Shown here: piece after piece, positions 14,816 through 14,860 of the stretch
Layout of the letters: the number at the start of each line of letters is the position of its first letter
Numbering within the stretch: position 1 is the stretch's first letter
Notes under the pieces: model-generated
The model's database searches: none
Seen by the model: only the letters and a program-made list of their open reading frames with translations
Told to the model about the DNA's origin: nothing
IMG/VR virus record: IMGVR_UViG_2671180543_000010
DNA from: a virus
Taxonomy: Duplodnaviria; Heunggongvirae; Uroviricota; Caudoviricetes
DNA: 16,137 nucleotides
Strand: one strand, 5' to 3'
Made by a program: the position numbers and the translations under genes

Positions 14816-14860
14816 TTGTTCGTAGTTGTTCCGCATTGTTGCTCATTGTTGCACGTTGTA
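14816..14860. repeat. Five TTGTT(C/G) repeats at exact 10-bp period (+ strand); minus strand reads ACAACGTGCAACAA-tgag-CAACAA-tgcg-GAACAA-ctac-GAACAA
   Basis: Direct reading; same box as 1581-1594 and 9143-9156 but in opposite orientation; lies in the int 3' flank upstream of the hairpin at 14694-14728. Confidence 0.5.

What the first reader, a model, noticed from the sequence alone, without database searches (positions are those of the whole stretch)
14816..14860. Five phased TTGTT repeats inside the integrase 3' flank, upstream of a hairpin
The array sits between the int stop (14908) and a hairpin at 14694-14728, more than 280 bp upstream of alpA, so it is not a conventional promoter-proximal operator. 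It may act in excision/integration control. It could also mark an att junction if the integrase actually belongs to a neighbouring tandem element that continues beyond the window, in which case this island would lack its own integrase.
Basis: inference. Interest (0 to 1): 0.5.

Follow-up and report, generated by a model that had tools for sequence, protein, structure and literature searches.

The report
Likely AlpA excisionase-regulator binding array
The five evenly spaced TTGTT repeats are real, and they are most likely a docking array for AlpA, the small excisionase/activator protein of this phage-satellite island. This is a familiar kind of control element, but I found no description of it for these satellites.

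Summary
TTGTT occurs at 14816, 14826, 14836 and 14846, and TTGTA at 14856, at an exact 10-bp period. Chance expectation for three phased copies is 0.01 per window.

The window is a capsid-forming PICI (EcCIEDL933/CP-933C family) inserted between phoQ and roxA. It is 99.99% identical to Shigella flexneri SFBU1023, where host roxA follows int directly.

The array is one of four with the same motif:
- one in each att arm, beside tandem 12-mers that co-vary with the integrase and match phage P4's annotated arm repeats;
- one upstream of the capsid operon (9132-9177);
- this one, between int and alpA.

The pentamers stay fixed while the spacers drift across islands at seven further chromosomal sites. 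Phased direct repeats one helical turn apart, found both at att and at promoters, are the signature of excisionase-regulators (186 Apl, P2 Cox, KplE1 TorI with GTTCG pentamers).

In EcCICFT073 the published AlpA-activated PalpA reporter fragment contains the homologous six-copy array.

Best reading: a cooperative AlpA operator mediating alpA autoactivation. Binding was not tested. This is a new member of a known kind, of moderate interest.

The parts
14816..14860 (+). Array A3 (the finding): TTGTT x4 plus TTGTA at an exact 10-bp period. It reads AACAA on the int/alpA sense strand. Inferred cooperative AlpA binding array.
   Evidence: Pentamers are invariant and spacers variable in 8 aligned islands. 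The homologous 6-copy array lies inside the AlpA-responsive PalpA reporter of EcCICFT073.
14693..14721 (-). Hairpin with a 12-bp stem between A3 and the alpA promoter region. Probable int terminator or attenuator acting in the sense (minus-strand) RNA.
   Evidence: It is more stable as sense RNA in all eight aligned islands because G-U pairs become A-C mismatches on the other strand.
14595..14623 (-). Best sigma-70-like site upstream of alpA: TTGCCA-17-(TG)CACAAT.
   Evidence: 9 of 12 matches, TG extension. Conserved in 7 of 8 aligned islands and deleted in L007. Not shown to be active.
14345..14533 (-). alpA, 62 aa, winged-helix excisionase/regulator. The inferred binder of the arrays.
   Evidence: Pfam PF05930, E = 5e-18. 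PHROG 'excisionase and transcriptional regulator'. AF2 model pLDDT 87; best PDB match is the GIsul2 excisionase 8c3t (TM 0.79), and RdfS and TorI also match.
14908..16137 (-). int, P4-type tyrosine integrase with an N-terminal arm-binding domain. It belongs to this island.
9132..9177 (-). Array A2: TTGTT, TTGTA, TTGTT, TTGTT, TTGTT on the minus strand (spacing 10, 11, 10, 10). It sits between the early-operon terminator and the capsid/packaging operon.
   Evidence: Retained in cf-PICIs at five further sites, including one whose AlpA is only 65% identical (L014).
9180..9197 (-). Intrinsic terminator ending the alpA-to-perC early operon. Its T-tract overlaps the distal A2 repeats.
1580..1604 (-). 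Array A1 in the phoQ-proximal att arm: TTGTG, TTGTT, TTGTT on the minus strand, 10-bp period.
1538..1561 (+). Tandem 12-mers ATTGACTACACC ATTAACTACACC. Inferred Int arm-type sites. The second pair lies 23-46 bp beyond the window end, upstream of int.
   Evidence: They co-vary with the Int N-terminal domain. Phage P4's GenBank-annotated 'attP arm sequence repeat' pairs have the same architecture.
1460..1469 (.). Left copy of the att core AAATATGTCC, overlapping the phoQ stop codon. The right copy lies 172-181 bp beyond the window end.
   Evidence: Published core GGACATATTT.

Best explanation
The five TTGTT repeats are a cooperative binding array for AlpA, the island's small winged-helix excisionase/activator. 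One monomer would sit on each repeat, head to tail, one per helical turn on one face of the DNA, bending it. The island carries four such arrays. Two flank the att core next to the integrase arm sites, where AlpA would direct excision. One lies upstream of the capsid/packaging operon. This one lies in the AT-rich int-alpA spacer, where it most likely mediates the known positive autoregulation of alpA: once a helper phage triggers some AlpA synthesis, AlpA loads on the array and boosts transcription toward alpA. Shown here: the repeats, their phasing, their non-random occurrence, their conservation, and their distribution at att arms and operon fronts. Shown in the literature: AlpA activates a fragment that contains the homologous array, and AlpA is needed and sufficient for excision. 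Inferred: that AlpA is the protein that binds, and how binding raises alpA expression (upstream activation or looping, relief of H-NS-type silencing, or read-through of the hairpin).
For: (1) Non-random and specific. Expected 0.01 per window. In 13 island-bearing loci there are 48 phased chains of at least 3 copies in 175 kb of island DNA, against 3 in 213 kb of host flanks.
(2) Selection acts on the pentamers, not the spacers. AACAA columns are invariant at a 10-bp phase in 8 islands whose spacers and flanks diverge to 77% identity. Copy number is 5-6.
(3) The same motif is present in both att arms of every island examined, at eight chromosomal sites, always next to tandem 12-mers.
(4) The 12-mers track the integrase, not AlpA. 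L013 and L014 AlpA are 89% identical but their 12-mers differ, while their Int N-terminal domains are 59% identical. The 12-mers also match P4's annotated arm repeats. This leaves the phased pentamers for the directionality factor.
(5) The arrays are independent of the replication module (primase, RepA helicase or DUF927) and of the packaging module, and of the variable Bro-zone genes.
(6) AlpA has the excisionase fold.
(7) Precedent. RDF sites are direct repeats one helical turn apart. 186 Apl has 5 at att and 7 at pR-pL (PMC7498355). KplE1 TorI has five cooperative sites whose cores are GTTCG/GATCG/GTCCG, three of them at an exact 10-bp period next to the -35 of PintS (PMC2951348, PMC3509656; sequence read). 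Here the full unit is TTGTTCG in many copies.
(8) AlpA activates PalpA in EcCICFT073 (PMC6092414). The primers of that reporter span L018 3128-3583, which includes the 6-copy array at 3187-3241.
(9) An island with a 56%-identical AlpA (L012) also carries a 4-copy GTTCG-type array, in the same orientation, in its int-alpA spacer.
Against: There are no binding data; the AlpA-array link is inferred.
- The array ends 193 bp upstream of the only promoter-like site scoring at least 9 of 12 before alpA, and a stable hairpin lies between them.
- Relative to the downstream gene, its orientation is opposite to that of A2 and of the array upstream of int.
- AlpA had no effect on a Pint reporter (PMC6092414). 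I could place only its forward primer; the fragment would include the int-proximal array if, as its near-match in the window suggests, the reverse primer lies inside int.
- The motif is conserved across AlpA proteins only 55-65% identical. Another conserved protein (the DUF4222 protein is present in every island) or a host factor would fit that fact equally well.
- Weak CACAA repeats near the -10 element could be the real AlpA-responsive site in the reporter.
Confidence: 0.6

Rival explanations
1. The array does bind AlpA, but it does not act as an upstream activator site. It lies in the int 3' untranslated region, upstream of a terminator-like hairpin. AlpA bound there (or to the AACAA-repeat RNA) would control read-through of int-derived or local transcripts into alpA. 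This would be antitermination as shown for Pseudomonas AlpA, or RNA-level control as reported for P4 Vis. Alternatively it could block or limit int transcription.
For: The hairpin is stable and consistently better as sense-strand RNA. P. aeruginosa AlpA is a processive antiterminator that loads at a promoter-embedded DNA element and bypasses a downstream terminator (PMC7969949). P4 Vis is described as acting on RNA (PMC2951348 discussion). In L013-L015 a terminator-like hairpin containing two GTTCG motifs 10 bp apart sits immediately before the alpA ATG.
Against: The Pseudomonas AlpA binding element is a single GGGACGN5GGTA site between -35 and -10, not a five-copy array (PMC7969949). No convincing promoter lies next to A3. 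A2 lies downstream, not upstream, of its terminator. The hairpin's U-tract is weak on the sense strand.
Confidence: 0.15
2. The arrays are bound by a different protein: the DUF4222 protein conserved in these islands, a host nucleoid or response-regulator protein, or the helper phage's own excisionase (as P2 Cox binds phased cox-boxes to activate P4). The int-alpA array would then be the input site through which the helper induces alpA.
For: alpA is induced by helper phages through an unknown factor (PMC6092414, PMC11773190). P4's PLL region carries three 10-bp-phased TTAAAG repeats; from my own knowledge these match the cox-box motif bound by helper P2 Cox, whose action on P4 is only cited in PMC7498355 (ref. 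41). The motif is conserved although AlpA diverges to 55%. DUF4222 is annotated in every island fetched.
Against: AlpA alone, expressed from pBAD without a helper, activates the fragment carrying the array and drives excision (PMC6092414, PMC10803314). Arrays inside att arms are where an element's own directionality factor binds. AlpA's helix-turn-wing residues are the most conserved part of the protein across alleles. The 10-bp spacing and TTGTTC core do not match the PhoP, ArcA, OmpR or IHF consensus sequences as I know them.
Confidence: 0.12
3. The repeats are integrase arm-type sites.
For: Arm-type sites can be phased direct repeats. The motif occurs in both att arms. The integrase has an arm-binding domain.
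Against: A separate motif, the tandem 12-mers, occupies the P4-type arm-site positions and co-varies with the Int N-terminal domain. The pentamer arrays do not change across Int proteins 55-100% identical. Two of the four arrays lie about 1.45 kb and 7.2 kb from the nearer core, in front of operons.
Confidence: 0.07
4. The array marks an att junction, and int belongs to a neighbouring tandem element.
For: The window ends at the int start codon, so the window alone cannot exclude it.
Against: In the 99.99%-identical S. flexneri locus and four E. coli relatives, roxA and the second core copy follow int within 250 bp. The empty site in K-12 confirms the island limits.
Confidence: 0.01
5. The repeats are replication iterons, terminase (pac/cos) sites, or a chance low-complexity run.
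For: Iterons and TerS sites are also phased direct repeats.
Against: The arrays persist unchanged in islands with three unrelated replication modules and in classical PICIs without terminase genes. Distinct iteron-like repeats lie next to the primase gene at 10380-10631, and GTCAC repeats lie near terL at 1974-2008. Chance is excluded.
Confidence: 0.02

Closest known systems
Apl of coliphage 186 and Cox of P2 (dual-purpose excisionase/transcription regulators)
   Same: Direct repeats 10-11 bp apart, 5-7 copies, present both at the attachment site and at a promoter region. One small protein couples excision to transcription. P2 Cox also acts on phased repeats upstream of a satellite (P4) promoter (PMC7498355).
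   Different: Apl and Cox belong to other sequence families and mainly repress face-to-face lytic/lysogenic promoters. Here the regulator is an AlpA-family protein reported to activate. The array is about 190 bp from the nearest promoter-like site, and there are four arrays, including one in front of a capsid operon.
TorI sites in the KplE1 (CPS-53) attL / PintS region
   Same: Five cooperative sites for a 66-aa winged-helix excisionase. The pentamer cores are GTTCG/GATCG/GTCCG, three of them at an exact 10-bp period next to the -35 of the integrase promoter (PMC2951348, PMC3509656). The island's repeats often read TTGTTCG.
   Different: TorI is only 22% identical to this AlpA and does not reach the Pfam AlpA model. 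TorI sites are known only at attL, where they repress intS. No array has been described in front of other operons.
Phage P4 recombination module (Int, Vis, attP)
   Same: Vis is a PF05930 AlpA-family excisionase/regulator, 43% identical. P4 attP has tandem 12-bp arm repeats on both sides of the core at positions similar to those here. Three GGAnnA hexamers phased at 10 bp lie beside the int-proximal pair.
   Different: The motif sequences differ. In P4, vis is far from int, and no array lies between int and the regulator gene. The Vis footprint data were not available to me.
Lambda Xis X1-X1.5-X2 microfilament
   Same: Head-to-tail monomers one helical turn apart bend the arm DNA next to an Int arm site (as summarised in PMC7498355).
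   Different: Three sites on one arm only, with no transcriptional targets outside att.
Pseudomonas aeruginosa AlpA and its binding element (ABE)
   Same: Same protein name and a winged-helix fold. It is a positive regulator acting on a unit with a downstream intrinsic terminator (PMC7969949, PMC9371919).
   Different: The ABE is a single GGGACGN5GGTA element between -35 and -10, and the mechanism is processive antitermination. Here there is a multi-copy phased array with no adjoining promoter.

Membership tests
Excisionase (RDF) operator array of the Xis/Cox/Apl/TorI type | Direct (head-to-tail) repeats, not palindromes | tested here: met
   All five units are co-oriented.
Excisionase (RDF) operator array of the Xis/Cox/Apl/TorI type | Spacing of about one helical turn (10-11 bp), three or more copies | tested here: met
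   Spacing is 10, 10, 10, 10. Relatives have 5-6 copies.
Excisionase (RDF) operator array of the Xis/Cox/Apl/TorI type | Short, loosely conserved core with variable spacers, maintained by selection | tested here: met
   AACAA columns are invariant and spacers variable in 8 islands. The position after TTGTT prefers C.
Excisionase (RDF) operator array of the Xis/Cox/Apl/TorI type | The same motif occurs in the att arm(s) next to integrase arm-type sites | tested here: met
   A1 at 1580-1604 and the array upstream of int, each beside tandem 12-mers, in all 13 island copies examined at eight chromosomal sites.
Excisionase (RDF) operator array of the Xis/Cox/Apl/TorI type | A cognate small winged-helix RDF is encoded in the element | tested here: met
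   alpA: PF05930, PHROG excisionase/regulator, fold match to the GIsul2 excisionase, RdfS and TorI. Needed and sufficient for excision in relatives (PMC6092414, PMC10803314).
Excisionase (RDF) operator array of the Xis/Cox/Apl/TorI type | Cooperative binding and bending by the RDF demonstrated on the repeats | not testable with these tools
   Needs EMSA or footprinting with purified AlpA.
P4-type integrase arm-type sites | Tandem ~12-bp repeats flanking the core on both arms at fixed distances | tested here: not met
   That description fits ATTAACTACACC x2 (about 85 and 142 bp from the core), not the TTGTT array. The array lies about 1.45 kb from the nearer core.
P4-type integrase arm-type sites | The motif co-varies with the Int N-terminal arm-binding domain | tested here: not met
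   The pentamer motif is unchanged across Int proteins 55-100% identical, whereas the 12-mers change.
Replication iterons | Repeats co-vary with, and lie next to, the initiator (primase/helicase) gene | tested here: not met
   Arrays are identical in islands with primase, RepA helicase or DUF927 modules. Other repeats adjoin the primase gene.
Capsid-forming PICI (EcCIEDL933 family), for the island as a whole | int-alpA-primase module plus capsid, protease, portal, head-completion, HNH, TerS and TerL genes; no tail or lysis genes; a PICI-specific att site | tested here: met
   Pfam. 97% identical to EDL933 over int-alpA. phoQ-roxA(ycfD) site with core GGACATATTT as published. Helper-dependent mobilisation was not tested, and the capsid gene carries a nonsense codon.

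The most novel reading that the evidence does not exclude
One 62-aa protein reads a single phased TTGTT(C) code at four places and so wires the satellite's whole life cycle together: excision (both att arms), its own induction (this array) and the switch-on of the self-encoded capsid/packaging operon. The int-alpA copy would work unconventionally. It lies inside the int 3' UTR, upstream of a terminator, in inverted orientation, acting by antitermination or at the RNA level rather than as a classical activator site.
Probability: 0.15. Interest if true: 0.6.

Novelty: new member of a known kind. Interest (0 to 1): 0.4.

Why it matters
AlpA is described as the master switch of Gram-negative phage-inducible chromosomal islands. 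The papers I could search give no operator for it and leave open whether it is an activator, an excisionase or both. A defined, conserved motif at four positions makes that question directly testable with footprints, point mutants and ChIP. It suggests AlpA is both, and it predicts that AlpA also controls the capsid operon of capsid-forming PICIs. It also assigns the previously puzzling 'doubled motif' of PICI attP sites to the integrase. For genome annotation, the motif set (core, tandem 12-mers, phased TTGTTC arrays) marks island ends precisely.

Tried and rejected
- Rfam scan of the window: no family matched, so there is no known sRNA or riboswitch around the hairpin.
- The search for related loci with AlpA in genome contigs gave only 3 loci. 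Two were too distant to help; the third (S. flexneri) proved to be the window's own locus.
Only 4 are this PICI type; the rest are unrelated tandem repeats without AlpA homologues. This could not test the association with AlpA.
- The CP4-57 arms in K-12 show tandem 12-mers but no clear phased pentamer array, so they do not inform on the motif.
- phmmer of AlpA against PDB sequences did not reach TorI; only the fold search did.
- The promoter scan found no site scoring at least 9 of 12 downstream of A2 or upstream of int. My candidate late promoters (TTTACC-16-TATTCT at 9111-9084; TTGTTC-16-TATTTT at 9136-9109) score only 8 of 12 and are offered as weak, possibly activator-dependent sites.
- I looked for a promoter directly abutting A3 on either strand and found none that is convincing or conserved in spacing.
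- I considered and dismissed a match to host response-regulator boxes (PhoP, ArcA, OmpR) or IHF. This rests on the spacing and core sequence as I know them, not on a tool.

Full report
**1. The observation**

The sequence at 14816-14860 reads cTTGTTcgtagTTGTTccgcaTTGTTgctcaTTGTTgcacgTTGTAtc. That is four exact TTGTT and one TTGTA, each start exactly 10 bp after the previous one. Tandem Repeats Finder reports a period-10 array. Three phased TTGTT are expected 0.01 times in a window of this composition, and no shuffle out of 200 reached the observed count.

The int ORF (16137 to 14908, minus strand) ends 48 bp from the array. alpA (14533 to 14345, minus strand) starts 283 bp from it.

It folds better as RNA of the int/alpA sense strand (-13.8 kcal/mol, z = -4.0) than of the other strand (-9.7, z = -2.0).

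**2.

The same search found the motif, in the opposite orientation, at two further places:
- 9132-9177, five copies with spacing 10, 10, 11, 10;
- 1580-1604, three copies.

A de novo search for any 4-mer phased at 10-11 bp in four or more copies finds only these arrays and one GTCAC repeat in the whole window. It finds none in shuffled sequence.

**3. What the window is**

Pfam annotation gives phoQ (1-1461) followed by an island whose genes all lie on the minus strand:
- a P4-type integrase, alpA and a D5-type primase;
- then major capsid, prohead protease, portal, head completion, HNH, TerS and TerL.

This is the gene set of a capsid-forming phage-inducible chromosomal island (cf-PICI; bioRxiv 10.1101/2022.09.08.507074). 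The int-alpA segment is 99.3% identical to E. coli IAI39 and 97% identical to EDL933. The window matches Shigella flexneri SFBU1023 at 99.99% over 10.6 kb.

**4. Island limits, and the fate of the tandem-element idea**

In the S. flexneri locus, in IAI39, in two other E. coli strains with an island at this site, and in CFT073, the int start codon is followed by 248 bp and then the host gene roxA. K-12 has no island, and phoQ and roxA are 75 bp apart there.

Comparing the junctions gives a 10-bp direct repeat, AAATATGTCC. One copy is at 1460-1469, overlapping the phoQ stop. The other lies 172-181 bp beyond the window end. This is the reverse complement of the core GGACATATTT published for EcCICFT073 at ycfD-phoQ (supplement of PMC6092414).

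So the integrase belongs to this island, and host DNA lies directly upstream of it.

**5. Anatomy of the attachment arms**

Each arm carries the same two-part module:
- a tandem pair of 12-mers: ATTGACTACACC ATTAACTACACC at 1538-1561, and ATTAACTACACC x2 at 23-46 bp beyond the window end;
- then a phased xACAA array: A1 at 1580-1604, and a fourth array (CACAA, TACAA, AACAA, AACAA) at 55-89 bp beyond the window end, immediately upstream of int.

ACTACACC occurs nowhere else in the window. The 12-mer pairs lie about 85 and 142 bp from the core. Williams and co-workers reported similar distances, 81 and 132 bp, for a 'doubled motif' of unknown binder in helper-embedded PICIs (PMC10111431).

**6. 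Comparative test: which protein goes with which motif**

I fetched thirteen island copies from eight chromosomal sites: phoQ/roxA, tqsA, allC/allE, yifB, smrA/abgR, clpS/cspD, thiM/rcnR and fis/yhdJ.

The 12-mers change with the integrase:
- ATTAACTACACC where the Int N-terminal 100 residues are 78-100% identical to the window's;
- AGTGACTACACC in the tqsA island;
- ACTGACCACACA where the N-terminal domain is 61% identical (L014);
- ACTGACTGCACC where it is 59% identical (L015).

They do not follow AlpA. The L013 and L014 AlpA proteins are 89% identical, yet their 12-mers differ. The GenBank record of phage P4 annotates 'attP arm sequence repeat' features as exactly such tandem 12-bp pairs on both sides of the core, the int-proximal pair 15 bp from the int start. 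I therefore assign the 12-mers to the integrase arm-binding domain.

The phased pentamers do not change. (C/T)GAACAA arrays flank the 12-mers in both arms of every island, including those whose Int and AlpA are only 55-66% identical. Across all loci there are 48 phased chains in 175 kb of island DNA, against 3 in 213 kb of host flank.

**7. The array between int and alpA in relatives**

Eight int-alpA spacers, 77-99% identical overall, were aligned. The AACAA pentamers form invariant columns at a 10-bp phase, while the 5-bp spacers and the surrounding sequence vary. The CFT073-type spacers have six copies.

An island with a different alpA allele (56% identity, L012) has a four-copy array of GTTCG, GTTCG, GTTTG, GTTCA in the same orientation in its spacer. 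[quoted passage not shown] Instead they have a terminator-like hairpin, containing two GTTCG motifs 10 bp apart, right before the alpA ATG.

**8. The array in front of the capsid operon**

A2 begins in the T-tract of an intrinsic terminator that ends the early operon. It ends about 20 bp upstream of weak promoter-like hexamers (8 of 12 matches, below the scan threshold).

The array is kept in cf-PICIs at the other sites, including L014 with the 65%-identical AlpA. It is degenerate in L015.

**9. Excluding other readings**

The arrays are the same in islands whose replication module is a primase, a RepA-type helicase or a DUF927 protein, and in classical PICIs that lack terminase genes. So they are not iterons or packaging sites. 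Separate iteron-like repeats lie next to the primase gene.

The genes between alpA and the primase vary from island to island. The proteins common to every array-bearing island are Int, AlpA and a DUF4222 protein of unknown function (PHROG 'unknown function'). The last cannot be formally excluded as the binder.

**10. Why AlpA**

- AlpA matches Pfam PF05930 and a PHROG named 'excisionase and transcriptional regulator'.
- A single-sequence AlphaFold model (pLDDT 87) has the winged-helix topology. Its best PDB match is the GIsul2 excisionase 8c3t (TM 0.79, rmsd 1.2 A). The RdfS excisionase and TorI also match.
- In related PICIs AlpA is required for induction and transfer, and it is sufficient for excision and replication when expressed alone. 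It activates its own promoter (PMC6092414, PMC11773190, 10.1101/2022.09.08.507074). In Vibrio PICMIs it behaves as the excisionase (PMC10803314).
- I mapped the primers of the AlpA-responsive PalpA reporter (pJP2038) onto CFT073. The fragment spans L018 3128-3583 and contains the six-copy array at 3187-3241.

[quoted passage not shown] 186 Apl uses five repeats at att and seven between pR and pL (PMC7498355). The five cooperative TorI sites of KplE1 have GTTCG/GATCG/GTCCG cores (PMC2951348, PMC3509656). In the K-12 sequence, three of them read caGTTCGtcatgGTTCGcttcaGATCGTTGACA, an exact 10-bp period ending at the -35 element. Many units here read TTGTTCG.

**11. How this copy most likely works, and what remains open**

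The array most likely nucleates an AlpA filament that raises alpA transcription once a helper phage has started it. Three features argue against a textbook activator site:
- the array is 193 bp upstream of the only good promoter-like site (TTGCCA-17-CACAAT, 14623-14595);
- the hairpin lies between the array and that site;
- the array's orientation relative to the downstream gene is opposite to that of A2 and the int-proximal array.

Possible mechanisms are bending or looping to the promoter, relief of silencing, or read-through of the hairpin. For silencing, the spacer is 35% G+C against 50% for the window, and H-NS silences alpA promoters elsewhere (PMC5148205, PMC8034616). Read-through of a terminator is how Pseudomonas AlpA acts (PMC7969949).

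AlpA did not change expression from a Pint reporter (PMC6092414). I could place only that reporter's forward primer. The fragment would include the int-proximal array if, as its near-match in the window suggests, the reverse primer lies inside int. That result shows that presence of an array need not mean transcriptional control.

**12. Verdict**

The finding is real and is not an att junction. It is best explained as one of four operator arrays for the island's excisionase-regulator. The principle is well known from P2/186/KplE1/lambda, so it is a new member of a known kind.

In the literature I could search, no AlpA operator has been described for Gram-negative PICIs. The arrays therefore give a concrete handle on how AlpA couples excision, autoinduction and capsid gene expression.

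Confidence that the repeats are a protein-binding array under selection is high. Confidence that the protein is AlpA is about 0.7. Confidence that this copy serves alpA autoactivation is about 0.6.

Noticed in passing
window 1538-1561, and 23-46 bp beyond the window end (L003 8351-8374): Tandem 12-mers (ATTAACTACACC x2) lie in both att arms, about 85 and 142 bp from the core. They co-vary with the integrase N-terminal domain across PICIs and match the annotated arm repeats of phage P4. This generalises the 'doubled motif' that PMC10111431 reported as unique to helper-embedded PICIs, with unknown binder.
   Followed up: yes
window 8089-8091: The major capsid gene carries a TGG-to-TGA nonsense codon (NAV*VVNST versus NAVWVVNST in relatives). 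This splits it into two ORFs, so this copy of the capsid-forming island is probably unable to build its own capsids.
   Followed up: partly
window 10380-10631: A cluster of short tandem repeats (CCTTATCTA, TCTACCTCCCTG, GGGTAGACAGT, GGTAGACAG) lies just downstream of the primase gene and looks like the island's replication origin. Islands with another primase type have TGTTCACC repeats there, resembling P4 type-1 ori repeats.
   Followed up: partly
window 1974-2008: Four GTCAC(N5-6) repeats phased at 10-11 bp lie between the att arm and terL. They may be terminase small-subunit or cos-proximal sites.
   Followed up: no
window 14875-14890: A perfect 16-bp palindrome, CAGTATGCGCATACTG, lies between the array and the int stop. 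It is present in the window-type spacers (L006-L008) but absent from the CFT073-type spacers.
   Followed up: no
window 14740-14769: The block TTACTGATTTTTTATACACTAGCGAATCAC (sense strand) between the array and the hairpin is the best-conserved part of the int-alpA spacer apart from the pentamers. It has no assigned function and may be the target of the unknown helper-phage inducer.
   Followed up: no
L012 16503-16540; L013 16226-16325; L015 16187-16286: Other alpA alleles have different upstream elements. L012 has a GATATT array phased at 10 bp next to the int stop. L013-L015 have a terminator-like hairpin with two GTTCG motifs directly before the alpA ATG. L013 and L015 also have paired GTGATATCAC palindromes.
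   Followed up: no
L016 (phage P4) 3984-4010: Three hexamers (GGACAA, GGAAGA, GGACGA) phased at 10 bp lie 18 bp from P4's int-proximal arm repeats. This is the same module layout as in the island and may be the Vis binding site.
   Followed up: no
L026, L030, L062 and other viral contigs: Unrelated viral contigs carry long arrays of TTTGTTCCGG-like 10-bp units and no detectable AlpA homologue. Their nature (coding repeat or another regulator's sites) was not examined.
   Followed up: no
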